The notes: a model not told the origin generated them from the sequence alone. A stretch of DNA of 64,000 nucleotides from a virus (IMGVR_UViG_3300034045_000104), one strand, 5' to 3'; shown: positions 28,306 to 62,223, numbered from the stretch's first letter. Numbers and translations: made by a program.

Positions 28306-29202
28306 CTACAAATCCACCGAAACATGACCGCCTAAAATACCAACATCAGAAACAGATTGTACGTTTTTCAATTGGTCGTCAAAAAAAATATCTGCCCCAA
28401 AAGCTTTTACAAACTCACCTTTATCTAAGCCACCCAAAAACACAGATTCATCCATCCTTAAACCCCAATGCCTTATAGTTTTTAGAACCCTTTTGTGGGT
28501 TGGGCTACAGCGAGCCGTTATCATACAAGTACGAATTGGCACATCATCAATCCCAAAACAAGATTGAATATCATGCAAACCAGACAAAAAACCTTTAAAC
28601 AAACCATCTTCTAATGGCACGTTTTCATTTGCGACTTCGTGTTCTGTAAAGGCTTTTAATCCACCTGACTTAAAAAGACTTTCAGAAGCACTAGAGAACA
28701 ATACAGCATCACCATCAAAACCAATTCTCAAGGGCTCATCATCACACTCATTAGAAACAAAAGACCCATCAACACGTAAATGCGCTGCCGCTATACCATT
28801 ATCAAGACAGCTTTTAACTTCCTTGGCATGGGCTGACAAAAACAAATCAACACCATAAGCTTTAATGTATTCACTTCTTGAACCACCTTTAGTAAAAGCA
28901 CCTTTTTGAATATTAAGTCCATAATGTTCAATTGAATTAAAAATCCGTAAACCAACATCACCATGATTCCTAGAAACCATCACCACTTCAACTAAGGCAT
29001 CCCCAGTAACAGGGCTTTTAATATTTAGAAGTTTTTCCACAATCCCAAATGCAACTCCCTTTTTGAGAATTTTAGTTTCGTTTTGAATTTGATAATCCCG
29101 ATATTCATCCACTCCTTTGGATAAAAATAATTGATGTTCACTATCAAGATTAAATAAAACCCTTGAACTTACCGCTATTACCAATTTTGACATAATATTC
29201 AC
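28306..29202 (-). CDS. hypothetical protein; possible HAD-like phosphatase or nucleotidase
   Basis: 298-aa protein with an internal IGFDGDAVLF (DxDx[TV]-like HAD motif I). The assignment is weak. Confidence 0.3.
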   Translation of the reverse strand: MNIMSKLVIAVSSRVLFNLDSEHQLFLSKGVDEYRDYQIQNETKILKKGVAFGIVEKLLNIKSPVTGDALVEVVMVSRNHGDVGLRIFNSIEHYGLNIQKGAFTKGGSRSEYIKAYGVDLFLSAHAKEVKSCLDNGIAAAHLRVDGSFVSNECDDEPLRIGFDGDAVLFSSASESLFKSGGLKAFTEHEVANENVPLEDGLFKGFLSGLHDIQSCFGIDDVPIRTCMITARCSPTHKRVLKTIRHWGLRMDESVFLGGLDKGEFVKAFGADIFFDDQLKNVQSVSDVGILGGHVSVDL

Positions 29203-39038: not shown

Positions 39039-41270
39039 TTAAAAATTCAAATCTAATGTGGTTTGCACATTATTTGTATTACTGTGATTGTTTTCGGTTG
39101 TTACACCATTTTCTAAACTCAAATCATTTATTTCTTGATGCACGAAACTAGAATTCAGTTCAGAAGCAACATCAATTCTAGCTTTTAAAACATCTAAAGA
39201 TGCAATCGTGTGACTTGTTCTATTTCGCAATGCTATATTTTCATTTTCATAACTCATCAAATTAATATCTGAAACATCAATACTACCCTGGGTCTCATAT
39301 CCTAAATCACCAATGTTGGACGCATTACTAGATTTAAATTCCATAAAATCAACATCAGTAACACCATCAAGACAATCCTTTACGTCACAAACATCTATTT
39401 TGACTCCAGATTTAACAACAACTCCAATAAAATCTTTAAGAGATGATAAATCAGCCAACAATACATCTGATACATCCTTAGCACTAACCACATCTCCATC
39501 GATTTTATTAGGTGCATTTTTACAAACAACAATAGCATCTTTAACATAAGCTATTGAATCTATTGTATCTGAACTCAAAAAAGACAATTCTTTAAGTTTT
39601 AATTTTGCATTCCCTGAAATTAGTTCAATTCGTTTCTCAGAGAGACCACCTGATAATTTGCCTTCATCTATGTTAAATTCATTCATGTAAGAATCAATAA
39701 CAGCAGAGTTAACACCAATATTAGAAAGCCGAGAAACGACATCAAGGAAACCAGGTTTTTCTCCCATTAATGGATCAGTAAAACTAATGGATATTTGCTC
39801 AATTGGCTCAAGTAAAGAAATTCTAGATGTTAAAAATGCTTTTTGTAAAACCTCCATCTCATCTTGCTCCCAATCAGTAGTAATCCCGCCCTCCACAAAA
39901 TCCATTTTCGTAGCCTCCCCATCATCCCCCATGGTATCGTTAAGTGAAGATGTATTTAGATTTGAATAAGCTGCGTCAAGTTTAATAACTTTATCAAAAG
40001 ACAGGTCGAGCGCATCAGCAATATCAGTATCACTTGGCTTTTTTTGAAACCGCGAATAATATTCTCTTTTATACTTCTTAATCTTAAGTATATCAATCCT
40101 GTCCTTTTCTGGCACTACAACAGTATTAAACATGTTATTAGATGCATTTCTTATAAATAATTCAGCGTAATGAGTAGCGTAAGCATTGAGTCTATTCCCA
40201 TTGGCAACCCTGTATCTTTCTATGCCTTGGGTATATCCAAGAACAGCAGCAGAAGATAATTCATTGCGAATATCGTTAGAAGGATGGGGAAAGTTTTTAA
40301 CGCGCTTATTTACAATGGTATAGATCCAATTAATATTTGCTTTTAGTAGTGTCTCAACATTCTTTTTATTAGCCCTATCAAAAGAGTTCAACTCCATAAT
40401 ATGTGATTGAATTTGAGAATAGGACATATTAAATTTGTTACCTAATGCTTGTTTAAGATTATAGACTTTTAAAGCCGCTTCACTTGTTGTTTTTGTTAAA
40501 ACGCTCCCAGAAACACGCTCTAAAGAGCTTTTAAATTCATCAAGTTTTTTATCAATCGGATTATCTTTTTGTTCAATATATGTTCTAAATTGTGGACCAG
40601 ATAAATTACAATCATCAACCAATAATGTTCTCAATTCCAGTCCGAAAACAGCCATGTCTCGTGCCACAAGGTCTGAATTAACTTTAAAAGCACTTAATGC
40701 ATCCTTAGAAAAAATTAGGCTTCTTGATTTTGCTCCTATTTGCTTAGATATTTTTTTCATACTGTCTAGATCACCTGTTAACCGGGATTTCATGTGTTTG
40801 TGATATAAACGATCTATTTCCATAAATGCCTTGGATAAAACACTTACATCAACATCATTACTTTCATACTTATCTACATTCTCTAAAGCCACATCACTTG
40901 GCTCGTCCGTTTCCCTTTTATTGCTTATAAATTTTAGCTCAGTATCTGGATAAGTGCCGCTTATTACATCGGCGTAGTTAATTTCTTTATTGTGAATTTG
41001 TACTATGCGCCTATGTAACAAATCAACATTACGTGGCACCGAAAAATATTCAGAAACTGTGTCTCTCTTAATATTGCGCATATCAATAAAAACATTGAAT
41101 TCAGCCTCCGCACTTAAATAGTTGGCATTAGTCTTTTTAACAGCTAATGGCACATATTCTTTATCATTGGTTTTGAAAAATTCATCGGCAAGTTCATCAG
41201 ACTCATCTTTAAACAAGTCATCACTCATTATTGCATCAAATTCCAAATCTACTTCAGCTTTATCATTCAT
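39039..41270 (-). CDS. RNA polymerase sigma-70 family factor (RpoD-like) with long acidic N- and C-terminal extensions
   Basis: Residues about 300-470 align colinearly with E. coli RpoD regions 2-3. ANINWIYTIVNKR matches ANLRLVISIAKKY. GNRLNAYATHYAELFIRNA matches GYKFSTYATWWIRQAITRS. VVVPEKDRIDILKIKKYKREYYSRFQKKPSDTDIADALDLSFDKVIKL...DTMGDDGEATKMDFVEG matches [48 protein letters not shown]...PIGDDEDSHLGDFIED. A weaker region-4-like stretch follows. Confidence 0.7.
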   Translation of the reverse strand: MNDKAEVDLEFDAIMSDDLFKDESDELADEFFKTNDKEYVPLAVKKTNANYLSAEAEFNVFIDMRNIKRDTVSEYFSVPRNVDLLHRRIVQIHNKEINYADVISGTYPDTELKFISNKRETDEPSDVALENVDKYESNDVDVSVLSKAFMEIDRLYHKHMKSRLTGDLDSMKKISKQIGAKSRSLIFSKDALSAFKVNSDLVARDMAVFGLELRTLLVDDCNLSGPQFRTYIEQKDNPIDKKLDEFKSSLERVSGSVLTKTTSEAALKVYNLKQALGNKFNMSYSQIQSHIMELNSFDRANKKNVETLLKANINWIYTIVNKRVKNFPHPSNDIRNELSSAAVLGYTQGIERYRVANGNRLNAYATHYAELFIRNASNNMFNTVVVPEKDRIDILKIKKYKREYYSRFQKKPSDTDIADALDLSFDKVIKLDAAYSNLNTSSLNDTMGDDGEATKMDFVEGGITTDWEQDEMEVLQKAFLTSRISLLEPIEQISISFTDPLMGEKPGFLDVVSRLSNIGVNSAVIDSYMNEFNIDEGKLSGGLSEKRIELISGNAKLKLKELSFLSSDTIDSIAYVKDAIVVCKNAPNKIDGDVVSAKDVSDVLLADLSSLKDFIGVVVKSGVKIDVCDVKDCLDGVTDVDFMEFKSSNASNIGDLGYETQGSIDVSDINLMSYENENIALRNRTSHTIASLDVLKARIDVASELNSSFVHQEINDLSLENGVTTENNHSNTNNVQTTLDLNF

Positions 41271-46921: not shown

Positions 46922-48106
46922 TTAATCCCATTTTAGTGCCGTTTTGGAATAGTCGATTACGGTCGTCTCAAAAAAATTTTTCTCCTTACGAAGATTGGCC
47001 TGTTCATCAAGCCACGGTAAAGCACACTGCGCCCCAGGGAAAGGTTCAGAAAATCCCAAGCTTCTTGCTCTTCTATTGGCTATATATCTAGATTGTTCAA
47101 TATGCTCTAAAGCTGAATAGCCTAAAATCGGTTTTTTTAAAATAAAATGGGCATAAGCAGACTCAGCAGCATCTGATTCTTCCCACATGTTTTTAAGTGC
47201 TTTAGGCTCAAGTTTGATGTCATTTTCAATGAATATTTGTTTAATAACACGTATACCAAAAGATGCATGCATGACTTCATCACGCATAATATATTGAAAT
47301 TGCTGGCCTGTGGCTGCCATCATTCCCCTTCTTTGAAGAGAAAATATAGGAGAGAATCCGTTATAGAACCAGGTTCCTTCGAAGATAGCAGCAAAAAATA
47401 TATAGGCCATAATAAATTCATGAAGATCATCTTTATTAGTTAGATCCATATTAGATTTCAATACAGAATCAAGTCTACGATTAGCAATTTGAATTTTTCC
47501 ATTTATAGCTGGCACAACTCGATAACGGTTGTAAATCTCTCCCTGGTCTAGTCCGATGGTTTCGATACAATGTTGATAGGTCCATGTATGTAACGCTTCT
47601 TCATAGACTTGACGTGCTTGATAAATTTGAAGTTCTGGAGCAGTCATTTTTTCCATAACAGCCAAACCAATATTGCGCATAGCTAAAATATCAGACGTGG
47701 TAAGATATGACAGAACATTTTCATAAACATGTCGCTCATCATCATTAAGCTTATGGTAAAAATCAGAAACATCTCCAGACATTTGAATATCTAAAGGGGT
47801 CCAGTGATTTGAATTACTATTGAGAAAATACTTCCATGCCCAAGGATATTTAAATGGGGCTAATTGGTTAATATCAGATGTTCCCCCAACAACTCTTTTG
47901 TCATCAGGATTAATGGGTACTACTCCTCCTTCAACAGAACTCCTTTTATTTGCATCCTTAAATTTATCAGGAATTTCTGTAATAACATCAACATTCTTTT
48001 CAGGTGCGTCTTTTATATTTTGTTTTGGAGGTTCAATATTGTTTTCAGTCTGAGGCTTATTTAATCCTTTTCCTAAAGGATCTGCCCATGTTTTAGTTAG
48101 GTTCAT
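46922..48106 (-). CDS. nrdB: ribonucleotide reductase small subunit (ferritin-like di-iron R2)
   Basis: ...PFKYPWAWKYF..., iron-ligand helices (EALHTWTY ... FEGTWFYNGFSPIF ... RDEVMHASFG) and a C-terminal tail typical of NrdB/R2. Confidence 0.85.
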   Translation of the reverse strand: MNLTKTWADPLGKGLNKPQTENNIEPPKQNIKDAPEKNVDVITEIPDKFKDANKRSSVEGGVVPINPDDKRVVGGTSDINQLAPFKYPWAWKYFLNSNSNHWTPLDIQMSGDVSDFYHKLNDDERHVYENVLSYLTTSDILAMRNIGLAVMEKMTAPELQIYQARQVYEEALHTWTYQHCIETIGLDQGEIYNRYRVVPAINGKIQIANRRLDSVLKSNMDLTNKDDLHEFIMAYIFFAAIFEGTWFYNGFSPIFSLQRRGMMAATGQQFQYIMRDEVMHASFGIRVIKQIFIENDIKLEPKALKNMWEESDAAESAYAHFILKKPILGYSALEHIEQSRYIANRRARSLGFSEPFPGAQCALPWLDEQANLRKEKNFFETTVIDYSKTALKWD

Positions 48107-48711: not shown

Positions 48712-49466
48712 GCCTCCTCACCAGAATACTAAAACTGTGTCAGAACCTCACCAAATAGTAAAATTGTGTCAGAACCTCACCAGAATAGCAAAACTGTGTC
48801 AGAACCTCACCAAATAGCAAAACTGTGCCAGAACCTCACCAAAATAATGAAATATACAAAAAAAACAAAGAAAACAGTGCGGTATTAACACGTTCTAGCA
48901 TAAGATTAGAGTTATATAGCATTAAAGCTCCCGAATATATGTAACTTCAACACACTAAATTGGGACTATTACGAGGTTCTGGTGAGGTTCTGACACAGTG
49001 TTTTGGGGTTATTGCGTGAATCTGGTGAGGTTCTGACACAGTATTTTGGGGTTATTGCGTGAATCTGGTGAGGTTTTAACACACTAAACTGGGACTATTA
49101 CGAGGTTCTGGTGAGGTTCTGACACAGTATTTTGGGGTTATTGCGTGAATATGGTGAGGTTTTAACACACTAAATTGGGACTATTACGAGGTTCTGGTGA
49201 GGTTTTAACACAGTGTTTTGGCGCTATTGCGTGAATCAAGTGAGGTTCTGACACGCTAATTAGGTGCTATTACGTGAATCTAATGAGGTTTCAACACACT
49301 AAATTGGGACTATAAACCGGTTCTGGTGAGGTTTTAACACAGTGTTCTGGGACTATTACGAGGTTCTGGTGAGGTTTTAACACAATTTTGGTGAGGTTTT
49401 AAAACAGCATGGTGAGGTTGTGAAACAACGTGGTGAGGTTGTGAAACAGTAAAAATATTTAAAACG
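48712..49466. repeat. large iteron-like repeat region with TGTGTCAGAACCTCACCA 18-mers in opposite orientations (4-5 copies left, about 13 right)
   Basis: The left array (48716-48848) has 32-33-bp units cctcaccaRaataSYaaaaYtgtgYcagaa. The right array (48961-49450) has alternating about 43-bp units, tggtgaggttctgacacagtRttttggggttattgcgtgaat and tggtgaggttttaacacactaaaYtgggactattacgaggttc, that decay to about 21-bp units (tggtgaggttgtgaaaca). An AT-rich tract follows at 49466-49556. Confidence 0.8.
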
Positions 49467-49556: not shown

Positions 49557-51215
49557 ATGATGAAAAAAAAAGATAAAAGGAAAAAAATGTTAAGCAAAGA
49601 AGAAGAAGAAAAAGAACGCATTAAAGAAAAGCTTAAAAAGCAATATTTAGAATCAGCGGAAACTGAGTATGATGATAATGAAAAAGTATCTAACAGTCTT
49701 CTTGATACTCCTTCCATGATAAATGCTCAAGCAAATAATATAAATGAACAAACCAAATTTGATGACGTAGACATTGATGATTTATGTGAGATAGGTGAAT
49801 CCAAAAACTTAAATTTAGATGATTACGAAATAATCACAGATACTACAGCATACGAAGATTATGGAATAAAACCATTTGAACATTTCGGGAATAAAAAAGT
49901 TGCTATAACAGAAGAAATTATAAACAAAAACAGATTGATCCAAACCGAAAGGAGTATAGAAAGGTATGTAGGGCAAATCTTTCCATCAAATAAATCAGAA
50001 AGATTAAACAAGGAATACAGCAAGCAATGGCCAGTAAAGGCAAGACATAAAATTTCTGGAAAAGTCATAACTGTGGGAACCCAAGGAATAAAGATAAAAC
50101 CATCGCTTGATAAACTTCGGTATACCACAGAGACATTGAAAATATATTGGGCACTAATATTTTTGTGGAACGCAAATGGCTGTCCAGAAGCTAATGTTGA
50201 GATTGAAAGCAATTTAAGTGATCTTTGTAAAATACTAACCATCGAAAAAAATGGGGAAGTATATAAAAGGCTAATCAAAGAATTATATTGCCTTAAGGAG
50301 ACAAGTTTAGAATTCTTGCGCTCGTTTGAAGTAAAGGGCGGGGAAAAATACAAATCCAGAAACATAAATATATTAACTGAATTCAATCACAATTATCGTG
50401 AGAAAACACAAAATAAATACGAAAAAGCATTAGAATTAGACAAAGAACACCAAAGCAAACAAAAATTTTCTTTTAAATTCAATTCTGACATTATTGAAAA
50501 CCTCAAAAACAAAGTAACAATCCCGGTTAACCTAAAAGTATTGAATTCAATTCGGTCATCTATTGCTCAAAGCATGTACACAAAAACCAACAAAATATTA
50601 ATGTGGCGGTATAAAGAAGCACTGAGAGGGGGGATAGTAGACTATGAAAATACAGCGCGAAGAATTGTTGGAGAAATAGGATTAAAACAAAAAAACTATA
50701 AATACCCATCAAGAAGAAAAGCATTAATAAATTTAATAGTCAAGGCTCTTGATGGAAAAGAATTAACACAACCAGGCTACACAATAAAAGCAGAATTATT
50801 TGATGCTGCAAACATGGATTACAAAGTAAGATTTACTTTGGTTGTGGATAAAACTAAAATAAAAAAATCAAATAGGCCAAAAGTTATTAATACTGATCCT
50901 GATGTAATAAGGACAATTATAGATAGAATCAAGGAATACATTCAACCAAAAACTAACAAAGATGATGACGCATATAAGATTTATGCACAAGTTTATTCTT
51001 ATGATCTTATTAATGTAGCTGTTGGCCAAGCTAGAGAAAAAGAAGAATATTTAAAAACAATAGGCAATGAAGTAACTAATAGAGGCGGCTGGTTTTCTAA
51101 TACACTTCACCAAGAAGTTCATAAAAAAAGGCTTAAATGGATTGATGGATGTGATGATAACAATGAAAGTTGTCCAATTTTAAAAAGATTAAAAAATGAA
51201 GGTTACATAGTCTAA
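49557..51215 (+). CDS. Lys-rich protein adjacent to the repeat array; candidate replication initiator or partition/centromere-binding protein
   Basis: 552-aa plus-strand ORF starting within 100 bp of the repeat and AT-rich region. It has a highly basic N-terminus and no recognisable catalytic motif. Confidence 0.45.
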   Translation: MMKKKDKRKKMLSKEEEEKERIKEKLKKQYLESAETEYDDNEKVSNSLLDTPSMINAQANNINEQTKFDDVDIDDLCEIGESKNLNLDDYEIITDTTAYEDYGIKPFEHFGNKKVAITEEIINKNRLIQTERSIERYVGQIFPSNKSERLNKEYSKQWPVKARHKISGKVITVGTQGIKIKPSLDKLRYTTETLKIYWALIFLWNANGCPEANVEIESNLSDLCKILTIEKNGEVYKRLIKELYCLKETSLEFLRSFEVKGGEKYKSRNINILTEFNHNYREKTQNKYEKALELDKEHQSKQKFSFKFNSDIIENLKNKVTIPVNLKVLNSIRSSIAQSMYTKTNKILMWRYKEALRGGIVDYENTARRIVGEIGLKQKNYKYPSRRKALINLIVKALDGKELTQPGYTIKAELFDAANMDYKVRFTLVVDKTKIKKSNRPKVINTDPDVIRTIIDRIKEYIQPKTNKDDDAYKIYAQVYSYDLINVAVGQAREKEEYLKTIGNEVTNRGGWFSNTLHQEVHKKRLKWIDGCDDNNESCPILKRLKNEGYIV

Positions 51216-51565: not shown

Positions 51566-51692
51566 AAATTAATCCCTCAAGAAAAGTTTGCACTGGCAGT
51601 AATGGCATAGACTGATAAAAACACAACAACCAGACCAACATTGTATAAAACCCGGTTATCATTGTCAATCACCTCCCAAAGCTAGAACCCAA

Positions 51693-52181
51693 TACTCAAT
51701 ATTAGGTATTGTACTATACACAAAGCACCACCAAACAAAGCCAAGAACCTACTAAACCATACCCAAGCATAGGTATTGCACTAGACCATAACACCTACCA
51801 CCCCATACAATCCCAAACTATATGCCCCGAGATCTTCCTGAAATAGCAATTTATTCCAGCCACCTTGTGCCATTAAGTAAGGCATATTTATGTTTATCTT
51901 TTGTATGTATGGGTATTTTAAGTTGAGCTTTTACATGTCCAGCTTGTTAATGTTTGGCTTATAATATGTCAATCATATTCATGTTAGCCTTAAATACGTT
52001 TGGCTTATAACAAGTTTGTCATGAGTCAGTATGGCACTTTTTAGTTTATATTATTATGTTATGGGGATTGGAGGAACGCTTAAGGTAAGTACAATACCTA
52101 ATAGTAAGTATTGTATAGAAAAGCTTTAGTTACAGGAGTCAAGCTTGAAAGGGGAGGGAATGTTGAGTACAATACCTACCG
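51693..52181. promoter_or_regulatory. structured non-coding region: four copies of 13-mer TAGGTATTGTACT (two direct, two inverted) flanking degenerate about 15-bp periodic repeats
   Basis: taggtattgtact at 51703 and taggtattgcact at 51770 on the plus strand. agtacaataccta at 52089 and agtacaatacctacc at 52166 are the reverse complement. Between them (51885-52025) lie about 9 imperfect repeats resembling nnATGTTTGGCTTAt. Confidence 0.45.
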
Positions 52182-52204: not shown

Positions 52205-53017
52205 ATGAAAGCAGATGTAATATTTAGAAAAGCATATGATTATGAAAGAACCATTCTGGCACGCATGGCTAAGTGGGAATCCTCAGGACAAGCTGTTGCG
52301 TTGTTTGTTGATGAGCAGTATCCTGCAGCTTATGTCACCCAACTGTTGCCCCCAGCTTTCATTCGCAGGGTAGTGGCCGTAAAAGATGCTCAAGATTTCG
52401 CACAGATTACTGACCTAGTTCATGAAATGAATAAATACTACAAGATGGCAGTTATTGCAGATCATGATGGCGATGAAAAGGCCTACAAAGGGCCAATGAA
52501 TCGATTTGCTGTGTGTGTTAAAGATGTGTTGTATGCAAGACATGTGCTCAAACAAAGCTGGGAGTCTATCAACGACTTTAAAAAGAGCCCCTTTGATTAC
52601 ATTCCTCTTATTTCAGTGAAAACTAAATGGGACCAAACACTTACCAATCTACAAAAGGAAGAAAAACTTTGTGAGTACGGTACCGTGCTATTAGCCAATG
52701 GCATCCAAAATGAATTCAAACATGGTACCTTGTATGGCCAAATAGATGGCATCAGAAAATATGGTAATGCACCAGGGCTTATAATTAGATCTCCAACTGG
52801 CACCCATCATAAAATGCACCTTAAATTTAAAGACCCTGAGTTAAAAACTAAAACCCTGGCTTGTGGCTATATTATTAGTAACGGTGAATTTGATGTTTTT
52901 AAAACAAAGCCAAGGACAAGGAAAAGACAGATTCAAGATATTCGAGAACAAATCAATCTGCCTATTTATACAGCCAATAGAACATTTTGGAAGGCAAAAG
53001 CCAATGAAATGAGCTGA
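52205..53017 (+). CDS. hypothetical protein
   Basis: 270-aa plus-strand ORF with no motifs. SD-like aggag lies upstream. Confidence 0.45.
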   Translation: MKADVIFRKAYDYERTILARMAKWESSGQAVALFVDEQYPAAYVTQLLPPAFIRRVVAVKDAQDFAQITDLVHEMNKYYKMAVIADHDGDEKAYKGPMNRFAVCVKDVLYARHVLKQSWESINDFKKSPFDYIPLISVKTKWDQTLTNLQKEEKLCEYGTVLLANGIQNEFKHGTLYGQIDGIRKYGNAPGLIIRSPTGTHHKMHLKFKDPELKTKTLACGYIISNGEFDVFKTKPRTRKRQIQDIREQINLPIYTANRTFWKAKANEMS

Positions 53018-53052: not shown

Positions 53053-53973
53053 TTACATATCTAAAATTTGTGCAAGCTGGTCATTTATATAAATTGGATC
53101 AACAAGCCCGATTTTTGCCTTTTTAACTGCATCATCAACGTAAGATAAACCCGTGTGCCCATCTGAACACTTGGAGCTGCACCAAAATTCAGAAGCTCCA
53201 ATAAAATCACCTTTTTGGATATAAGACAAATATTCATCAGTCGGAATTAATATTTCAAAAACACCAGTTCTACCAACAATACCATTTATACAATGCTCAC
53301 AACCACTTTCATTAACAAACCTTAAGTTCATCATGTCCTGTGCAAACATATTTTTAATTACGACATGATATTTAGGACTTATAAACTTTTTAGCCTGAAC
53401 AAAATTTAATCTACAATGCTTACATAAAACATTAACAAGCCTTTGTGATATAACAGCTTTAACAGCGTTGTGCTTAATCATATCATTAATAGGTATATTA
53501 ATATCTGAAATCATTCTAGGAAATAAATGAGAGGCGTTTATTGAGTGTAGAGAAGATAACACCATATGTTTTTCGTCAATTAACCTAAACACTGCATTTG
53601 CAGTATTTAAATCACGTATCTCGCTAACCAATATTACATCAATTCCCTTTTTTGAAACAATGTTAATAGCATTGGAATAATTGACGTTTCTTTTATTTAC
53701 ACCATCACCAATGCCATGTAAAACCTGATTTTGCCTAACCCCATCAATATTATATTCTATAGGATCTTCTATAGAGCAAATTATTTTATTTGCTTGGTGA
53801 TAGTTATCAATGAATTCAAGCATTACTTTTAGTGTTGTGCTTTTTCCTGAGCCAGTTGGACCCACCACAAAAATACCACCATCTGAGGATTTCAAAATCG
53901 GTTTTAAAACAGCAATAACATCATTGCTAAAACCTATGTTTGTTAATTTAAATGAATTTGTAAACATCACCAT
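53053..53973 (-). CDS. GspE/PilB-family secretion ATPase, C-terminal ATPase domain only (no N-terminal domains)
   Basis: Walker A GPTGSGKSTTL, Asp box IEDPIEY, Walker B DVILVSEIRD, His box HMVLSSLHS, and the GspE-type tetracysteine Zn site CKHC...GCEHCINGIVGRTGVFEIL (compare GCxxCxxTGYxGRxGIxELL). Only about 35 residues precede Walker A. Confidence 0.75.
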   Translation of the reverse strand: MVMFTNSFKLTNIGFSNDVIAVLKPILKSSDGGIFVVGPTGSGKSTTLKVMLEFIDNYHQANKIICSIEDPIEYNIDGVRQNQVLHGIGDGVNKRNVNYSNAINIVSKKGIDVILVSEIRDLNTANAVFRLIDEKHMVLSSLHSINASHLFPRMISDINIPINDMIKHNAVKAVISQRLVNVLCKHCRLNFVQAKKFISPKYHVVIKNMFAQDMMNLRFVNESGCEHCINGIVGRTGVFEILIPTDEYLSYIQKGDFIGASEFWCSSKCSDGHTGLSYVDDAVKKAKIGLVDPIYINDQLAQILDM

Positions 53974-53986
53974 AATTATATTCTAT

Positions 53987-54187
53987 TTATAATTTACCAT
54001 TTACAGTTTGAGGTTTGTCAAAAAATAGAACAACCAGCCATGACATAATTACCAATAAAACAATATTTAAAATATCGAGCAAAAGGTTATTAAAAATGAA
54101 GATTACTGCCAACACCATATAAAGTAATGATGTTTTAGCTGCAATTTTATAAATACGTTTTTCACTATGTTTCGCTTCTTTAGTCAT
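53987..54187 (-). CDS. small membrane protein (2 predicted TM helices)
   Basis: 66-aa ORF with hydrophobic stretches LLYMVLAVIFIF and IVLLVIMSWLVVLFF. Confidence 0.4.
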   Translation of the reverse strand: MTKEAKHSEKRIYKIAAKTSLLYMVLAVIFIFNNLLLDILNIVLLVIMSWLVVLFFDKPQTVNGKL

Positions 54188-54228
54188 ATTAATTTCCTTT
54201 GAATTTGTAATAATGCCAGTTATTTTGG

Positions 54229-54510
54229 CTAAACCTTTACAGTGCCATAAGCCAAATATTGTAAGCTATAACCGCTAGTAATGGTAAAAAATAAAGACAT
54301 CAAATAATCAATCGCTAGCTGTCCAAATAAAATAACATTTGCTACAATAAAAACTGTAGATGTTAAATTAATTAACAGTTCCTTTGTAAAAGAAACGTCA
54401 AATCCGTTAACAGCGGCATAAATAGCCAAAAACAAACCGGATAAAACAAATATATATATTGTAAGAACCAATACATCAACAATATATTTAAAAAACACTT
54501 TTAACTTCAT
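54229..54510 (-). CDS. small membrane protein (about 3 TM)
   Basis: 93-aa hydrophobic ORF. Confidence 0.4.
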   Translation of the reverse strand: MKLKVFFKYIVDVLVLTIYIFVLSGLFLAIYAAVNGFDVSFTKELLINLTSTVFIVANVILFGQLAIDYLMSLFFTITSGYSLQYLAYGTVKV

Positions 54511-54543
54511 GATTTAATTCTCCTAGTGGGTTAGTGATTTCAT

Positions 54544-54792
54544 TTATTTTGGTTCAATCACGTCATTCTGTATTTCTTTGTGTAATTTATCTTTATTCAA
54601 ATTAAAATGAACAAAGTCAAACAACGTATATAAAAAAAATAATGCGCAATACACCATAAATACTATGATTGATGCATATATATAATGGTCATAAATATTG
54701 TCTTTATTTAAGACTATATCTAATGCACCCAAAAAGAGAAAAACCGTAAGGCACATTTGAAGTACCATTTTTAGATTAATCTTTGAATTCAC
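54544..54792 (-). CDS. small membrane protein (2 TM)
   Basis: 82-aa hydrophobic ORF. Confidence 0.4.
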   Translation of the reverse strand: MNSKINLKMVLQMCLTVFLFLGALDIVLNKDNIYDHYIYASIIVFMVYCALFFLYTLFDFVHFNLNKDKLHKEIQNDVIEPK

Positions 54793-55024
54793 GTTCTTCT
54801 CCTTCTTTTAGTTTATTTAATGTTCGTGCGTACAAACGACTTCTTATCACTTTTAATCCCTTATCCCTAGCATTCCTCATTGAAGAAAAAAATTCATTTG
54901 TTAAAACTATTTTTTCACCCGTTGGTTTGTGGACACACTTAACGTACCATATGATCCTACTCATACCCGTAAAATCATTTAAGAACCCAGAAATTACATC
55001 TACATCTGTTATTTTATATTTCAT
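54776..55024 (-). CDS. small basic soluble protein
   Basis: 82-aa ORF with a 17-bp overlap to the downstream membrane protein gene. Confidence 0.35.
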   Translation of the reverse strand: MKYKITDVDVISGFLNDFTGMSRIIWYVKCVHKPTGEKIVLTNEFFSSMRNARDKGLKVIRSRLYARTLNKLKEGEEREFKD

Positions 55025-55173
55025 TAGAATAATCTCATAATACGTTATTTTAACTCAAGAAACCATTTCCAATGCTCCGGCTTCCATAAATTAGGATTGT
55101 TAACGTCTTCACTGTCTGTTGGTGGATATTGAACGCCCAGGCCAACAATGGCCTTGTTAATATGTTTTCTATG

Positions 55174-55437
55174 TCAATCAAGCAACGTATTTGCTTTAAT
55201 GCTCTGTTGCTCTGTTAATAATGATTGGTCCATTGTTGAAACATTTTTTAATTTACGACCTTGTAATATCCACTGGTCTTTAGTTACCCCTCTCTCATAC
55301 TTAGATGACCCACACATTGAAATAGCTTTGTCTTGACCAGAAAGGTAATTTAAAAACCCATTAAATAGTTTAATAAAGCACCAGCCTATAAAAACTCCCA
55401 GAGCTATTGTAAATATTAAAATTATATCAATATTCAT
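55174..55437 (-). CDS. small membrane protein (N-terminal TM anchor)
   Basis: 87-aa ORF beginning MNIDIILIFTIALGVFIGWCFIKLF. Confidence 0.35.
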   Translation of the reverse strand: MNIDIILIFTIALGVFIGWCFIKLFNGFLNYLSGQDKAISMCGSSKYERGVTKDQWILQGRKLKNVSTMDQSLLTEQQSIKANTLLD

Positions 55438-55650
55438 AATTTATTCCTCCTTACTTTCAATCTTAGCCTTTAAATATTCACTTGCATCTTTAATTTCAAA
55501 AATAACGAAAGGTACAAAGAGAATGCTAAATACAATTGCTATAAACAGAGATGCGATTCCTAAATCATGTGGCATATATAAATTCCTATTATTGTGATAG
55601 ATTTGTTTTTCATAAAAACACTTTAATTAATTTAGCCCTATTGTATTGAT

Positions 55651-56016
55651 TTACCAATAATAATAAAAATAGGGCACAATAAATAACAACACAGCAAATC
55701 CTGCCTGTAACAGACCTAGATTATTGATTCTTTTTACATACCTTAAATACAGCGACCTGACTAAAAGAACAACACCACCAAAAGCAAGAAGCTTAAGGGC
55801 AAGTTGACCCAAGGCCATTCTTGCTTCGTATACCCTATCATAATTTAATGGCATAGGCGCACCATCATCAAATATAGATAGAAAGCCAATTATAACCAGT
55901 ATCAAAAAGACAGTAAAACCCACACCCAACATTAAACCTATTAATGTATCCACTACTTTGTTTTTCTTTTTTATAACTTTAGTTTTTCCCATAACAACCT
56001 CAATTTGGTTCATCAC
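55651..56016 (-). CDS. membrane protein (about 3 TM)
   Basis: 121-aa hydrophobic ORF. Confidence 0.4.
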   Translation of the reverse strand: MMNQIEVVMGKTKVIKKKNKVVDTLIGLMLGVGFTVFLILVIIGFLSIFDDGAPMPLNYDRVYEARMALGQLALKLLAFGGVVLLVRSLYLRYVKRINNLGLLQAGFAVLLFIVPYFYYYW

Positions 56017-56052
56017 TTTTCATATGACTACAGCCATAATTCTACAATACTT

Positions 56053-56676
56053 CTAACCCCAAACAATGGCAACCTCTATACCTAAAATAAGCTGATCATC
56101 GTGCTGCTCATCTGCTTCAACCGCAGACTTACCCTTGGCCTTTTTAACAGGCTTTGGGGCAAGCACCTCATACTTTTCATACATATCCTGTTGGCCAGGA
56201 CGCTGTTCCACAGGAACACATTCAACATATTCCTTGCGCTGCTTATTCATAATATTAGGTGTTGCAGAAATCCGCAATACAGGATTTAACTCTAATTTAT
56301 TTAAATGATCATATAATCGTTTTAAATTACCACATAAATCCCGCTGGTACCGCTCTGCCAACAAAGGGGTATGTACAATGGAACCATCTACTCCTCGATG
56401 AAACTCTGTTCGCAGCATTCTTTTAATGCGCGAATTTTCCATACCTTTTAGTAACTCAACACTGCCGTCAGAACCAAACCACCCAACCACCAAGGATGGT
56501 AAATAGGATGCTGCGAATTCCAAGCGTGGCCTCAACTCTGAAATCATGTATTTAAACTCACGTTCCAATTTGTTTTGTTGATCTTTTTTGCGCTGCTTTT
56601 CAAGTGCTATGCCCTGCTGTTCTTGTTGCTTAACAGCAGCCCCATAAATGTTCTTAAGCGAATCTAAATCTATCAT
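56053..56676 (-). CDS. hypothetical protein
   Basis: 207-aa ORF, soluble, with a charged coiled-coil-like N-terminus. Confidence 0.4.
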   Translation of the reverse strand: MIDLDSLKNIYGAAVKQQEQQGIALEKQRKKDQQNKLEREFKYMISELRPRLEFAASYLPSLVVGWFGSDGSVELLKGMENSRIKRMLRTEFHRGVDGSIVHTPLLAERYQRDLCGNLKRLYDHLNKLELNPVLRISATPNIMNKQRKEYVECVPVEQRPGQQDMYEKYEVLAPKPVKKAKGKSAVEADEQHDDQLILGIEVAIVWG

Positions 56677-56763
56677 ATGCTTTTCTCTAATTATCTATTT
56701 ATACATTGTGTCCTAGCCACAACCCATATAATAACATCCAGATGATAGATGCTCAAGACCCAA

Positions 56764-57183
56764 TCAACCATTCAAAGCCAAAAGACAAGGCATAACATCG
56801 ACAAGACGATAATAACCCTTACACTCAAATTCGAGTCCATCACTGCTGTATGCCTGGAATACGAACTCATTACCATTATCACCATCTGGAAGCTCTCTAT
56901 CTGTCATATCAATTGGCAGATGTAAAGCAGGCGGTGTGGATGTAGCATTTTCAAACATAACCTCTAAACACTCAATGTCATCCATTTGCCCTCTGGAGAC
57001 AATTACATGTTCACATTTTTTCATAGCCTCAATGTCATAAAGTTTTGAATCTGGGATAAACAATCTCCCAAAACCCGGACGCCAAGACAAATACGCACGG
57101 CCAGCTGCAGCATGTGCTGTACTAAAATAATTTGTACTCAAAAACTGCGAGCCCTTTGTTTTTATTGTTATCAACTCACTCAT
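56764..57183 (-). CDS. hypothetical protein
   Basis: 139-aa ORF. Confidence 0.4.
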   Translation of the reverse strand: MSELITIKTKGSQFLSTNYFSTAHAAAGRAYLSWRPGFGRLFIPDSKLYDIEAMKKCEHVIVSRGQMDDIECLEVMFENATSTPPALHLPIDMTDRELPDGDNGNEFVFQAYSSDGLEFECKGYYRLVDVMPCLLALNG

Positions 57184-57347
57184 AAAATATCCTCATTTTT
57201 ACTAATTATATAAACGATACCAATCCTGATACCGGCATAAATTTTAAAAAGTTTCATGCTCACTTAAAACCCTACATTGCATCATTCACAAACAATCCAT
57301 GCCCGTGCCAGGATAACACCAACAAAGCTATTACCAATACTACCAAG

Positions 57348-57686
57348 TCAAACCGAGCTATAAGCTAAACTAATTAACAATGGTCCCAACTTTGAAATAG
57401 AAATAATTGTTGAAAAGATAAAAAAGAATAACCAGAGATTCACTATATTTTTAAAATACTCCTTTTGCACACCATCACGAAACAACAATTTAGTAGCTAA
57501 AGATAAAGGAATAGCTACAGTAACACCAAGAAGCCAGTAAAACAGATATTTAAAATTTCCAATATTCCAATATGAAAAATGCGATAAAAAGTAATATGTA
57601 TATGACAATGTAATTATTAATATTATAAATGTCCAAACAAACATATAGAAGCCATTCTTCTCAAAATTGTTATTAGTCATCATCAC
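57348..57686 (-). CDS. membrane protein (about 4 TM)
   Basis: 112-aa hydrophobic ORF that overlaps the upstream gene by 14 bp. Confidence 0.4.
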   Translation of the reverse strand: MMMTNNNFEKNGFYMFVWTFIILIITLSYTYYFLSHFSYWNIGNFKYLFYWLLGVTVAIPLSLATKLLFRDGVQKEYFKNIVNLWLFFFIFSTIISISKLGPLLISLAYSSV

Positions 57687-58383
57687 ACTCCTTAATCACA
57701 TCATTAGATTTATTTACAACACCACCTGATATTCGTTTAACATACATACTCTCTACACCTTTAACAACCCCTTCAAATCCAATCGGCTTTAAACATAGAT
57801 CTAGATGTTTACTTTTTTCCATCTCTCTTCTTTTTTGTTCAATATCAAGCAATGATTGCCTATACCTTTTAAATTCATCCCCAACAAATACAGCGTATTT
57901 CGCCCTAAAAACACAATTAGCTCTTCCTGCAACCATGAAAATATCAACATTCCTTGAATTGACCATATATGGCTTTGGAAAAGCTTTATTCATTAAATCT
58001 TGAAAGTATTCAATTTCATTATCATTATAATAGGAGCATAGTTTATTTAGTCCAGTTTCATCAGTTGTATCTTCACTTAGATAATCGCTAGGATCACTCC
58101 TAAACTCAGTAGGCCTCTCCTCTATAATTTTATAAAGAGCATTATCATCTTGCTCTTTGGTTGACGTAAAATACAACTTTATTCCACGTACATTTGTCTC
58201 AGGAAACACATAATTAAACTCAGGATTAACCCGTAAAAACGTTTTTAATGCCTTAGCTATTATGCCAACATCATTCTCAACAACAGATTTCCTAACATGG
58301 GTTGTATCAAACCAGTAAAAGAAACTAAAAACGACCAGCAGCCAAAACGCATTTAAATAACCTATATATTTGTTCTTTTTCAT
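57673..58383 (-). CDS. membrane-anchored protein (N-terminal TM plus about 200-aa extracytoplasmic or soluble domain)
   Basis: 236-aa ORF beginning MKKNKYIGYLNAFWLLVVFSFFYWF. Confidence 0.4.
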   Translation of the reverse strand: MKKNKYIGYLNAFWLLVVFSFFYWFDTTHVRKSVVENDVGIIAKALKTFLRVNPEFNYVFPETNVRGIKLYFTSTKEQDDNALYKIIEERPTEFRSDPSDYLSEDTTDETGLNKLCSYYNDNEIEYFQDLMNKAFPKPYMVNSRNVDIFMVAGRANCVFRAKYAVFVGDEFKRYRQSLLDIEQKRREMEKSKHLDLCLKPIGFEGVVKGVESMYVKRISGGVVNKSNDVIKECDDD

Positions 58384-60698: not shown

Positions 60699-61268
60699 TT
60701 AGGCTGCCAGTGGCTTAACCTCATATTCGTTAATATATTCTTCAGCTCCCGCAATGGCATCCTCCTGACTAAAATAACCACCATACCCTTCATCGGTAAC
60801 AGTAATATCAAATCTATAGACATCGCCATTACACCAAGACGAATATGTAACCAATGCGCTTTCTGCCAATTTAATAGCTTGCGCTTTTCGTTTAGCAGAC
60901 CATCTTGACCAACCCATTTCATCACGATCTATTAACAACCAACCCATTTGGCCAGAATCCCATCTACAAGAAAAAGGCACTGTTGAATAGGCAACACCAC
61001 TATGCTCAAACTTATACAAAGGCAAAACCAAATAACGTGAATTATTGCGCATGAAAGTTTCAATCTTTTCAATATCCTCATCACGATCTTCATAATCCAA
61101 CTCATAGCCGGCAAGCTCAAAAGGATCTGTTTTAGAACCATTCATACTTCTTGTGTAAGAATTTGAAACAACATAAAATAGCTCATCATGCTCCAAAGGA
61201 GATTCAGAATCACTATCCATACTTATGCAATACTTAACGCCCTTAAAGGTTTCTTCACTTACTTTCAT
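60699..61268 (-). CDS. hypothetical protein
   Basis: 189-aa ORF. Overlapping ORFs 60677-60925 and 60932-61141 are probably spurious. Confidence 0.4.
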   Translation of the reverse strand: MKVSEETFKGVKYCISMDSDSESPLEHDELFYVVSNSYTRSMNGSKTDPFELAGYELDYEDRDEDIEKIETFMRNNSRYLVLPLYKFEHSGVAYSTVPFSCRWDSGQMGWLLIDRDEMGWSRWSAKRKAQAIKLAESALVTYSSWCNGDVYRFDITVTDEGYGGYFSQEDAIAGAEEYINEYEVKPLAA

Positions 61269-61944: not shown

Positions 61945-62223
61945 TTAAAGGCTGGATTTTATTCTTTTAATCTGCACATTATTCGCCATAATGTTAATTT
62001 CAGCAAACTCAGTACCGCTAATTTTTCCATCCTTCAACGCACTGTTTACTAAAGCACCGATCTCTGGATATTTTTCCTTTAAATTATCAACATATGCATA
62101 ATCTCGCACAGATATTTCATTTACCGCAAAACCAACTTGGCTTATTATCACCACCACAACAATAACAACAAACGCCGCCATCACATATAGACCAAACCCA
62201 CTACTACCTTGCTTTTTAGACAT
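61945..62223 (-). CDS. small membrane protein
   Basis: 92-aa ORF with a central TM segment FGLYVMAAFVVIVVVVIISQVGFAV. Confidence 0.35.
   Translation of the reverse strand: MSKKQGSSGFGLYVMAAFVVIVVVVIISQVGFAVNEISVRDYAYVDNLKEKYPEIGALVNSALKDGKISGTEFAEINIMANNVQIKRIKSSL

What the first reader, a model, noticed from the sequence alone, without database searches (positions are those of the whole stretch)
53053..58383. Truncated GspE/PilB-type ATPase (C-terminal domain only, Zn tetracysteine intact) followed by a run of small multi-TM proteins: possible novel minimal membrane machine
The 306-aa protein keeps every catalytic signature of type II secretion and type IV pilus assembly ATPases, including the GspE-specific CxxC...CxxC zinc site, but lacks the N1/N2 domains that couple it to the inner-membrane platform. 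Directly downstream on the same strand are six ORFs of 66-121 aa with 1-3 predicted TM helices each. Three further membrane proteins follow (57348-58383, 61945-62223). None resembles pilins or PilC/GspF. A phage- or plasmid-borne stand-alone secretion-ATPase core with its own set of tiny membrane partners is not a described arrangement. Functions could include DNA or protein export, host takeover of pilus machinery, superinfection exclusion, or a lysis-related system.
Basis: partly seen in the sequence, partly recalled or inferred. Interest (0 to 1): 0.75.

Follow-up and report, generated by a model that had tools for sequence, protein, structure and literature searches.

The report
Orphan C-terminal half of pilus ATPase
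A large plasmid-like element carries only the C-terminal half of a conjugative-pilus assembly ATPase; it still folds but lacks parts needed to work as a motor, so it is more likely a decoy or altered binding protein than the core of a new membrane machine.

Summary
The 306-aa ORF 53053-53973 (-) is a real, confidently folded C-terminal domain (CTD) of a GspE/PilB-family ATPase. The Walker A, Asp box, catalytic Glu, both His-box histidines and the CxxC-x37-CxxC zinc site are intact. No N1 or N2 domain is encoded anywhere in the window, and an in-frame stop lies 4 codons upstream of the start.

It does not keep every catalytic signature. Both universally conserved arginine fingers lie in the missing N2 domain. 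The protein is also the only exception at three positions that are 100% conserved in 60 homologues (R108K, P111I, G135K).

Its closest relative (46% identity) is a full-length 564-aa PilQ-type ATPase in a canonical R64-like type IVb pilus/transfer locus. The window protein is therefore a truncated derivative of a conjugative-pilus ATPase.

The small membrane ORFs are real by coding score and ribosome-binding sites, and they are tightly clustered. They lie upstream of the ATPase, not downstream. All are database singletons, so nothing links them functionally to the ATPase.

An iteron array with a putative Rep gene 3.6 kb away marks a plasmid-like replicon.

My best guess (about 0.35) is a hexamer-poisoning decoy against full-length pilus or secretion ATPases. 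A new minimal machine is not excluded but is disfavoured (about 0.1).

The parts
53053..53973 (-). 306-aa CTD-only GspE/PilB-family ATPase of the PilQ/BfpD type IVb clade. Features: Walker A 38-46, Asp box E69-E73, Walker B/catalytic E118-R120-D121, His box H136 and H143, zinc site C184/C187/C225/C228, and a subfamily-specific C-terminal tail 255-306.
   Evidence: No SD motif. The ATG lies 13 nt after the stop of the upstream ORF.
53987..54187 (-). 66-aa ORF with 2 predicted TM helices, immediately upstream of the ATPase.
   Evidence: Singleton in the protein collection.
54229..54510 (-). 93-aa ORF with 2 predicted TM helices.
54544..54792 (-). 82-aa ORF with 2 TM helices and a GTG start. Overlaps the upstream gene by 17 nt.
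54776..55024 (-). 82-aa soluble basic protein. It is an RF-1 (release-factor GGQ-domain) like fragment; my manual alignment finds no GGQ motif.
   Evidence: Pfam RF-1 E=0.048. NCBIfam prfA E=0.0024. JGI names it 'protein subunit release factor A'.
55174..55437 (-). 87-aa ORF with an N-terminal TM anchor. It ends in TGA, and the same frame stays open for 42 more codons, to about 55048.
55441..55575 (-). 44-aa ORF with 1 TM helix.
55651..55992 (-). 113-aa ORF with 3 TM helices. The likely start is ATG 55992, preceded by GAGG. The longest ORF begins at 56016.
56053..56676 (-). 207-aa soluble orphan protein. The N-terminal long helix is the only part predicted with moderate confidence (blocks 1-30 at pLDDT 84-87).
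   Evidence: AF2 pLDDT 45, unusable.
56764..57183 (-). 139-aa acidic protein homologous to a hypothetical protein found on 1135 plasmid records. The listed examples of about 82-101 kb are Enterobacteriaceae plasmids; the one record inspected is IncI-gamma/K1, MPF_I. There the gene lies next to a site-specific integrase.
57348..57686 (-). 112-aa ORF with 3 TM helices.
57673..58383 (-). 236-aa ORF with an N-terminal TM or signal anchor.
48716..49461 (.). Context: iteron-like arrays. There are 4.3 copies of a 29-nt unit at 48716-48843. About 10 copies of a 43-nt unit at 48960-49391 carry the same core motif inverted (TGGTGAGGTTCTGACAC).
49557..51215 (+). Context: 552-aa orphan ORF directly after the iterons. 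It is a putative replication initiator.

Best explanation
IDENTITY (shown). The gene encodes the isolated C-terminal ATPase domain of a PilQ/BfpD-type (type IVb pilus) assembly ATPase. It was cut exactly at the N2D-CTD linker. It sits on a large, AT-rich, iteron-type plasmid-like element.

STATE OF THE PROTEIN (shown). The ORF is intact and the predicted fold is confident. The protein evolves at the same overall rate as its full-length relative. It keeps the nucleotide- and zinc-binding residues. It lacks both N2D arginine fingers. It has uniquely replaced several near-universal residues around Walker B and the His box.

MECHANISM (inferred).
- The protein cannot build the N2D(n)-CTD(n+1) packing units of a homo-hexameric motor.
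- It most likely acts by binding. As a free CTD it could dock onto the N2 domain of a full-length assembly ATPase, either the host's T4P/T2SS PilB/GspE or a co-resident plasmid's PilQ.
- Having no N2D of its own, it would cap or poison that hexamer.
- The outcome would be blocked pilus assembly. That could mean exclusion of pilus-dependent phages or plasmids, or fertility inhibition. It would resemble phage Tip and Aqs1 in effect, but use a self-derived decoy.

MEMBRANE GENES. The upstream small membrane genes are real and probably co-transcribed with the ATPase. Their connection to it is unproven. They may be independent membrane cargo of the exclusion or immunity type.
For: - Family placement. 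PDB sequence hits rank BfpD 1.9e-25, then GspE, PilF and PilB, well above PilT, and PilT above DotB. NCBIfam gives GspE 142 bits, PilB 136, PilT 92, TraJ 67, VirB11 23.
- Closest relative. P0129 is 564 aa, 46% identical over residues 10-305 including the C-terminal tail. It lies between PilO and T2SSF/PilS-pilin genes, with a secretin, a TrbI-like gene and a second TraJ-like ATPase nearby.
- Missing parts. The N2D columns with near-invariant Arg are absent. Walker A T40 minus 41-43 residues places the R286 equivalent before Met1.
- Unique substitutions: R108K, P111I and G135K (each 100% conserved elsewhere), D110G, G117S, T134E, T141S and E123N.
- Not decaying. At family-consensus sites (50% or more), the window protein has 18 unique deviations and P0129 has 16. 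At sites conserved 90% or more, the counts are 7 and 0, p=0.016.
- The coding score is positive only in frame. GC3 matches that of the element. AF2 pLDDT is 91.8.
- Literature. Defective EpsE variants are dominant-negative through competition or mixed oligomers (PMC5061722). Phage proteins Tip and Aqs1 disable PilB by binding N2D and destabilising the hexamer (PMC11656802; PMC13436744).
Against: - There is no direct evidence of any interaction or phenotype.
- No full-length target ATPase is visible in the 64-kb window, and the host is unknown.
- The ATPase has no recognisable ribosome-binding site, so expression may be low or depend on translational coupling.
- Substitutions near the His box could also weaken CTD-N2D docking.
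- The element is a singleton, so purifying selection cannot be measured by comparison with orthologues.
- The tight cluster of membrane genes next to the ATPase is left unexplained by this model.
Confidence: 0.35

Rival explanations
1. New minimal membrane machine. The CTD is recruited to the membrane by one or more of the co-transcribed small TM proteins. These would replace N1/N2 and the PilC/GspL platform, and the assembly would power export, uptake or lysis.
For: - All five multi-TM proteins of the window lie within 3.7 kb directly upstream of the ATPase.
- Intergenic gaps are short, and the ATPase start lies 13 nt after the 66-aa TM ORF, which is compatible with translational coupling.
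- The core nucleotide- and zinc-binding residues are intact.
- The ORFs are coding by frame score.
Against: - Both arginine fingers and the whole hexamer-forming N2D are absent.
- The pore residue equivalent to PilB E400 is Asn. The T411 equivalent is Glu.
- The TM proteins are singletons, with no conservation, no paralogy and no family hits.
- The run is interrupted by an RF-like fragment, a 207-aa orphan and a plasmid-backbone gene unrelated to secretion.
- The nearest relative works in a conventional pilus locus.
Confidence: 0.1
2. Functionless relic. The gene is a leftover 3' fragment of a pilQ gene whose operon was destroyed by rearrangement near the replication module. It still happens to be open.
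For: - The gene sits at the junction between the minus-strand gene block and the plus-strand Rep module.
- It is the only gene in the cluster with no ribosome-binding site.
- It has lost residues that are invariant elsewhere.
- No other pil genes are found in the window.
Against: - The 306-codon ORF is open in 65% A+T DNA despite about 55% amino-acid divergence from its nearest relative.
- Its overall rate equals that of the full-length relative.
- 38 of 46 near-invariant CTD columns are kept, and all columns fully invariant across the 61 aligned sequences include it.
- The truncation falls exactly at the domain boundary, with an ATG.
- Codon usage is ameliorated to that of the element.
- The predicted fold is confident.
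Confidence: 0.2
3. Exapted nucleotide- and zinc-binding protein with a role unrelated to pili. Examples would be a regulator or a plasmid-maintenance or anti-defence factor. The membrane genes would be unrelated cargo.
For: - The surrounding region is a collection of orphan and accessory genes: SSB, methylases, Sir2, DUF2786, an anti-restriction-like protein and RNRs.
- The substitution pattern fits retained ligand binding with lost cooperative catalysis.
Against: - There is no precedent or positive evidence.
- There are no PADLOC defence hits beyond generic P-loop matches.
- The subfamily-specific C-terminal tail shared with PilQ-type P0129 is conserved. This suggests that pilus-related interaction surfaces are retained.
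Confidence: 0.25
4. Artefact. The N-terminal half is hidden by an assembly error, a frameshift or a wrong start.
For: Three of the four short T2SSE proteins looked up in the databases are exactly this kind of artefact.
Against: - No N1 or N2 coding potential exists in any frame of the window.
- An in-frame stop lies 4 codons upstream, and the upstream ORF is a well-scoring TM gene.
- The same protein and the same neighbours are recorded on two contigs.
Confidence: 0.03

Closest known systems
PilQ of IncI1 plasmid R64 and BfpD of EPEC: type IVb pilus assembly ATPases (GspE/PilB superfamily, Pfam PF00437)
   Same: - Best PDB sequence hit is BfpD.
- The closest database relative, P0129 (46% identity), occupies the PilQ position in an R64-like locus ordered secretin, PilO, ATPase, T2SSF, PilS.
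- E. coli plasmid tblastn hits annotated 'ATPase, T2SS/T4P/T4SS family'/tadA cover residues 12-306 at about 31% identity.
- Shared features are Walker A, Asp box, catalytic Glu, His-box histidines and the CxxC-x37-CxxC zinc site. The spacing is within the family range of 21-40 (PMC5061722).
- The C-terminal tail motif TG(V/L)SYVDDA is also shared.
   Different: - It lacks the first 250 or so residues, i.e. N1 and N2, and so both arginine fingers.
- It has unique substitutions at R108, P111, G135, T134, D110 and G117.
- There is no platform, pilin, secretin or peptidase gene nearby.
- It scores far below the NCBIfam equivalog cut-offs (142 against 617-675 bits).
Phage-encoded PilB inhibitors Tip (D3112) and Aqs1 (DMS3)
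   Same: The proposed outcome is the same: a mobile element disables an assembly ATPase by engaging its N2 domain and disrupting the hexamer (PMC11656802; PMC13436744).
   Different: Tip and Aqs1 are small unrelated proteins. Here the putative inhibitor is a fragment of the target family itself. No experiment supports the analogy.
Engineered dominant-negative EpsE/GspE variants
   Same: Defective family members interfere with wild-type machines through competition or mixed oligomers (PMC5061722).
   Different: Those are laboratory constructs that keep N1 and N2. A natural N-less CTD has not been tested.
Frameshift-split PilB/GspE genes in metagenome assemblies
   Same: They also yield CTD-only gene calls of about 260-330 aa (P0104, P0060, P0028).
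   Different: They have the N-terminal half immediately upstream, and a T2SSF-type gene downstream where annotated. The window gene has neither.

Membership tests
GspE/PilB/PilT secretion ATPase superfamily (PF00437 T2SSE) | P-loop CTD with Walker A, Asp box, atypical Walker B with catalytic Glu, and His box | tested here: met
   Pfam E=2e-44. G38-K44, E69/D70/P71/E73, E118/R120/D121, H136 and H143 fall in invariant columns. Foldseek TM to PilB/BfpD CTD is 0.78-0.85. The flanks deviate: G117S and TG134-135EK.
GspE/PilB/PilT secretion ATPase superfamily (PF00437 T2SSE) | N-terminal (N2) domain carrying two conserved arginine fingers and forming N2D-CTD packing units | tested here: not met
   The protein starts at the N2D-CTD linker. 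The near-invariant N2D Arg columns are absent. No N2D is found in the window. The definition of the feature comes from PMC5424180.
GspE/PilB assembly-ATPase clade (as against PilT, VirB11 and DotB) | Tetracysteine zinc-binding CM subdomain, CxxC-x21-40-CxxC | tested here: met
   C184-x2-C187-x37-C225-x2-C228, all in invariant columns. Scores rank GspE and PilB well above PilT, TraJ, DotB and VirB11.
GspE/PilB assembly-ATPase clade | N1 (GSPII/MshEN) domain that binds the GspL/PilM platform | tested here: not met
   Absent.
GspE (TIGR02533/NF007755) or PilB (TIGR02538) equivalogs | Score above the curated whole-protein cut-off | tested here: not met
   142 bits for GspE and 136 bits for PilB, against cut-offs of 617-675 bits.
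Type IVb pilus (R64 pil / BFP / TCP) system | ATPase encoded together with a PilC/T2SSF platform, type IVb prepilin, prepilin peptidase and secretin | tested here: not met
   None of these is found among the window ORFs scanned. Only the ATPase is shared with locus L005. The rest of the 143-kb source contig could not be examined.
PilQ-like subfamily defined by P0129 and P0134 | Highest sequence similarity and a shared C-terminal tail (…EFW/EYW…TG[VL]SYVDDA[VI]xKAK…) | tested here: met
   46-48% identity, against 37% or less to all others. A degenerate DNA pattern for the tail found only the P0129 element in the metagenome collection, and nothing in the genome or viral collections.
Functional hexameric motor | Hexamerisation and cooperative ATP hydrolysis | not testable with these tools
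   Needs biochemistry. The sequence argues against the canonical mechanism.
Known anti-phage defence systems (PADLOC) | A specific model hit for the ATPase or its neighbours | tested here: not met
   Only generic P-loop matches, E of 2.5e-5 or weaker, and no hits for the neighbours.

The most novel reading that the evidence does not exclude
The CTD-only ATPase and the co-transcribed set of tiny 1-3-TM proteins form a previously undescribed minimal membrane-associated ATPase apparatus. The membrane proteins would replace N1/N2 and the PilC/GspL platform. A slightly less radical version is a natural self-derived decoy domain that a mobile element uses to poison type IV pilus or type II secretion motors.
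Probability: 0.1. Interest if true: 0.8.

Novelty: new variant of a known kind. Interest (0 to 1): 0.38.

Why it matters
If the free CTD is active, it would be a natural experiment in the domain logic of secretion ATPases. Specifically, it would be a CTD that retains nucleotide and zinc binding but has shed the arginine fingers and the hexamer-forming domain.

If it is a decoy, it would add a new, self-derived class to the known ways mobile elements disarm type IV filaments (Tip, Aqs1). It would also offer a template for dominant-negative inhibitors of T4P and T2SS motors.

If it is only a relic, it is of little consequence. At present the evidence shows an unusual but explicable truncated family member, not a new system.

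Tried and rejected
- Source and close relatives. Exact look-ups for the ATPase, in its 306-aa form and as P0001 (304 aa), found no contig. Scans of IMG/VR and JGI metagenomes with the ATPase, the 540-aa protein and the 743-aa protein found nothing. Megablast against plasmids and phages found nothing.
- Rep candidate. The homologue search returned only the protein itself.
- N-domain elsewhere in the window. tblastn and a profile HMM were both negative.
- Lysis-cassette idea. One window ORF matches an endolysin PHROG and one a cell-wall-hydrolase Pfam family. None of the ORFs near the cluster that I scanned individually matched them.
- Pilin idea. None of the small proteins has a G-1/E+5 class III signal. 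The 92-aa ORF 61945-62223 has 'SSG|FGLYV' but no Glu5. This was by inspection of the sequences.
- Paralogy among the TM proteins: none.
- Fusion of the 66-aa TM ORF to the CTD by frameshift: rejected. Both frames carry stops before the ATG.
- Defence-system membership: negative.
- Alternative genetic code (prompted by Gracilibacteria hits): rejected. Coding density is 88% under code 11, and TGA is used as a stop in 16 of 108 ORFs.
- AF2 of the 207-aa neighbour, tested as a possible N2D supplied in trans: pLDDT 45, unusable.
- RNA elements. Rfam found nothing in the window. The 55030-55200 spacer folds no better than shuffled sequence, z=-1.0.
- Promoter and terminator scans: not above shuffled expectation.

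Full report
**What is there.** Almost every gene in the window, about 100 of 108 ORFs, is on the minus strand. Coding density is 88% under the standard code and GC is about 35%. The flagged ORF 53053-53973 (-) encodes 306 aa. It matches Pfam T2SSE at E=2e-44, but only over profile positions 118-333 of 370. Walker A (GPTGSGKST) begins at residue 38, whereas most full-length homologues have it at about residue 150-330. With a 61-sequence alignment, AlphaFold2 gives mean pLDDT 91.8 and pTM 0.90. Foldseek aligns essentially the whole model to the C-terminal domains of PilB, PilF, BfpD and GspE. TM is 0.78-0.85 normalised to the query and about 0.6 normalised to the N2D+CTD targets, which is what a missing N2 domain would give.

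**Is the truncation real?** Yes.
- An in-frame TAG lies four codons upstream of the ATG. The next ORF upstream is a well-scoring 66-aa two-TM gene that ends 13 nt before the ATG, in another frame.
- tblastn with the N-terminal regions of the full-length homologues (Walker A beyond residue 150) finds nothing in the window. A 231-position profile HMM of those regions also finds nothing; its best E is 0.16, on an unrelated fragment.
- The same 304-aa protein and its neighbours are recorded on two JGI contigs, the longer 143,161 bp.
- By contrast, three other short T2SSE proteins I looked up (P0104, P0060, P0028) are frameshift-split genes. Each has the N-terminal half immediately upstream, and a T2SSF-type gene downstream where annotated. 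P0037 (316 aa) sits next to a giant pilin-like protein.

**Which family?** PDB sequence hits rank BfpD (1.9e-25), then GspE, PilF and PilB, far above PilT, and PilT above DotB. NCBIfam ranks GspE (142 bits), PilB (136) and TfpB (120) far above PilT (92), ComGA, TraJ, FlaI, DotB and VirB11. All are far below the equivalog cut-offs. The exhaustive HMMER search of 1.84 billion cluster representatives found one clearly closer relative. P0129 is 564 aa and 46% identical over residues 10-305, including the unusual C-terminal tail. A fragment, P0134, is 48% identical. Everything else is 40% identical or less. P0129 is full length. Its N2 domain carries the ASDIH, RxRVDG, LRFSS and VLRLL motifs.

P0129 lies in a textbook R64-like thin-pilus and transfer locus. 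The order is secretin, PilO, P0129 (the PilQ position), T2SSF (PilR), PilS-type prepilins, and a second 333-aa TraJ-like ATPase. A TrbI/DotG-like gene lies upstream. The DNA is 31.6% GC. The window protein is therefore an N-terminally truncated member of the PilQ/BfpD type IVb assembly-ATPase lineage. Only the ATPase is shared between that locus and the window.

**Does it keep every catalytic signature?** No. The following are kept, all in invariant columns of the 61-sequence alignment:
- Walker A, G38 to K44.
- Asp box: E69, D70, P71, E73.
- Catalytic E118, with R120 and D121.
- H136 and H143.
- All four cysteines, arranged C184-x2-C187-x37-C225-x2-C228. This spacing is within the 21-40 range given for the family (PMC5061722).

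According to the PilB structures (PMC5424180), the hexamer is held together by N2D(n)-CTD(n+1) packing units burying about 1,600 Å². Two arginine fingers conserved throughout the family (R271, R286) reach the nucleotide from the adjacent packing unit. In PilB, R286 lies 41 residues before the Walker A Thr327; in P0129 the spacing is 43. In the window protein that position falls before Met1, so both fingers are absent.

Within the CTD, the protein deviates at 8 of 46 columns that are at least 90% conserved. That is the highest count in the alignment, where the median is 1. It is the only exception at R108 (now K), P111 (now I) and G135 (now K), each 100% conserved in 60 homologues. It also has D110G, G117S, T134E, T141S and E123N. 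T134 corresponds to PilB T411, which mediates inter-packing-unit contact next to the His box. E123 corresponds to the pore residue E400.

**Is it decaying?** Probably not.
- The 306-codon ORF is open in 65% A+T DNA despite about 55% amino-acid divergence from its nearest relative.
- Its coding score is positive only in frame, and its GC3 matches that of the element.
- In a relative-rate comparison against the family consensus, it shows 18 unique deviations and P0129 shows 16 at sites conserved 50% or more. At sites conserved 90% or more the counts are 7 and 0, binomial p=0.016.

This pattern is general constraint with selective loss at a few of the most conserved positions. It points to a changed function, not a pseudogene. 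One caveat: it is the only gene in the cluster without a Shine-Dalgarno-like motif.

**The small membrane genes.** In transcription order, the run leading to the ATPase is:
- 236 aa, N-terminal anchor.
- 112 aa, 3 TM.
- 139 aa, soluble.
- 207 aa, soluble.
- 113 aa, 3 TM.
- 44 aa, 1 TM.
- 87 aa, 1 TM.
- 82 aa, soluble and RF-1-like.
- 82 aa, 2 TM.
- 93 aa, 2 TM.
- 66 aa, 2 TM.
- The ATPase.

Each ORF scores best in its own frame out of six, and each has an SD-like motif. All five multi-TM proteins of the 64-kb window fall within 53987-57686, so the clustering is real. The TM calls rest on a hydropathy window only.

None of the membrane proteins has a Pfam, NCBIfam or PADLOC hit of note; PHROGs was run only on the 207-aa and 236-aa neighbours, also without hits. 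None looks like a pilin. They are not paralogues of each other. Each ORF that could be looked up is a singleton cluster among about 15 billion proteins. tblastn against 72,556 plasmid records and 50,697 phage records finds nothing for them. The only conserved gene in the run is the 139-aa ORF, which has homologues on 1135 plasmid records. The record I inspected is an IncI-gamma/K1, MPF_I plasmid, where the gene sits next to a site-specific integrase in the maintenance region. Co-conservation of the ATPase with the membrane genes therefore cannot be tested. Adjacency is the only link.

**What kind of element?**
- About 3.6 kb from the ATPase lies an iteron-like region. It has 4.3 copies of a 29-nt unit, then about 10 copies of a 43-nt unit carrying the same core inverted. 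It sits directly upstream of a 552-aa orphan + strand ORF, in the most AT-rich part of the window. This is the layout of an iteron-type plasmid or phage-plasmid replicon.
- The rest of the window encodes class II RNR, an RNR small subunit, a RecD2-like helicase, SSB, several DNA methylases, Sir2, a PAPS-reductase-like protein, DUF2786, an anti-restriction-like 540-aa protein, a 743-aa sigma-70-like protein, a 5'-nucleotidase, a Band 7 protein and a cell-wall hydrolase.
- Among the window ORFs I scanned I found no phage structural genes and no conjugation genes.
- I read it as a large plasmid-like element. A phage-plasmid is not excluded.

**Most likely mechanism.**

Shown:
- An isolated, confidently folded CTD of a PilQ-type ATPase.
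- Nucleotide- and zinc-binding residues intact.
- Arginine fingers and the hexamer-forming domain missing.
- Substitutions at coupling and pore positions.

Inferred:
- It cannot run the canonical hexameric motor cycle on its own.
- The simplest activity left to it is binding. A free CTD is the natural ligand of an N2 domain. It could therefore occupy the N2D of a full-length PilQ, PilB or GspE subunit. Having no N2D itself, it would terminate or distort ring assembly.

Precedent:
- Defective EpsE variants are dominant-negative through competition or mixed oligomers (PMC5061722).
- Mobile elements are already known to disarm PilB by targeting N2D and destabilising the hexamer, as Tip and Aqs1 do (PMC11656802, PMC13436744).

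I put this decoy reading at about 0.35. The other readings:
- An exapted binding protein with a role unrelated to pili: 0.25.
- A functionless relic: 0.2.
- An assembly or annotation artefact: 0.03.

**Novelty and score.** I found no described natural CTD-only GspE/PilB-family protein that appears to be under constraint, so this one is unusual. It is nonetheless a truncated variant of a well-known family with a clear full-length relative. There is no positive evidence for a new system, and the singleton status of the element blocks comparative tests. I rate it a new variant of a known kind, interest about 0.38.

Noticed in passing
window 48716-49461 and 49557-51215 (+): Iteron-like arrays directly upstream of a 552-aa orphan ORF, in the most AT-rich part of the window. 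There are 4.3 copies of a 29-nt unit, then about 10 copies of a 43-nt unit carrying the inverted core TGGTGAGGTTCTGACAC. This is probably an iteron origin plus a novel Rep initiator with no detectable homologue in 5.8 billion protein clusters.
   Followed up: partly
window 55048-55437 (-): The 87-aa TM ORF ends in TGA. The same frame then continues for 42 sense codons (HRKHINKAIVGLGVQYPPTDSEDVNNPNLWKPEHWKWFLELK) with a positive coding score, and a GGCCATTGTTGGCC hairpin lies about 20 nt after the TGA. This could be readthrough, a sequencing error, or a non-canonical start. The fold is not better than shuffled sequence.
   Followed up: partly
window 54776-55024 (-): An 82-aa protein resembling the release-factor RF-1 (GGQ) domain. 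By manual alignment, TGM stands where GGQ would be. JGI annotates it as 'protein subunit release factor A'. It lies immediately downstream of the TGA-interrupted ORF.
   Followed up: no
proteins P0130-P0144: A set of proteins of about 980-1050 aa with two T2SSE ATPase stretches each, i.e. tandem-duplicated GspE-like ATPases. They rank just below the closest relative in the exhaustive search.
   Followed up: no
window 56764-57183 (-); L008 7007-7420: A 139-aa acidic protein, 33-39% identical to a hypothetical protein found on 1135 plasmid records, mostly Escherichia and Salmonella. In the IncI-gamma/K1 record inspected it lies directly upstream of a site-specific integrase gene.
   Followed up: partly
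window 51679-52113: A 26-nt inverted repeat, 92% complementary, with arms at 51690-51715 and 52088-52113. A 41-nt direct repeat lies at 51679 and 51746. Both are in the non-coding stretch between the Rep candidate and the 270-aa + strand orphan gene 52205-53017. They could be a partition or regulatory site.
   Followed up: no
window 1371-3320, 46922-48106, 39039-41270, 28306-29202: The element carries a class II (B12-type) ribonucleotide reductase and a class I RNR small subunit with no large subunit among the ORFs scanned. It also carries a 743-aa protein with only sigma-70 region 3 recognisable, and a 5'-nucleotidase.
   Followed up: no
window 60699-61268 (-): A 189-aa acidic protein that matches phrog_6186 (E=1.5e-14). 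It has homologues on 44 plasmid records from Roseobacter-group bacteria, Pseudomonas and Firmicutes, all annotated hypothetical.
   Followed up: no
L005 16192-17250 and window 24847-25785 (+): Apart from the ATPase, this is the only similarity between the P0129 pilus/transfer locus and the window. A 352-aa protein in L005 is 26% identical over 170 aa (E=7e-7) to the 312-aa + strand ORF, whose N-terminal 19 residues are hydrophobic by hydropathy.
   Followed up: no
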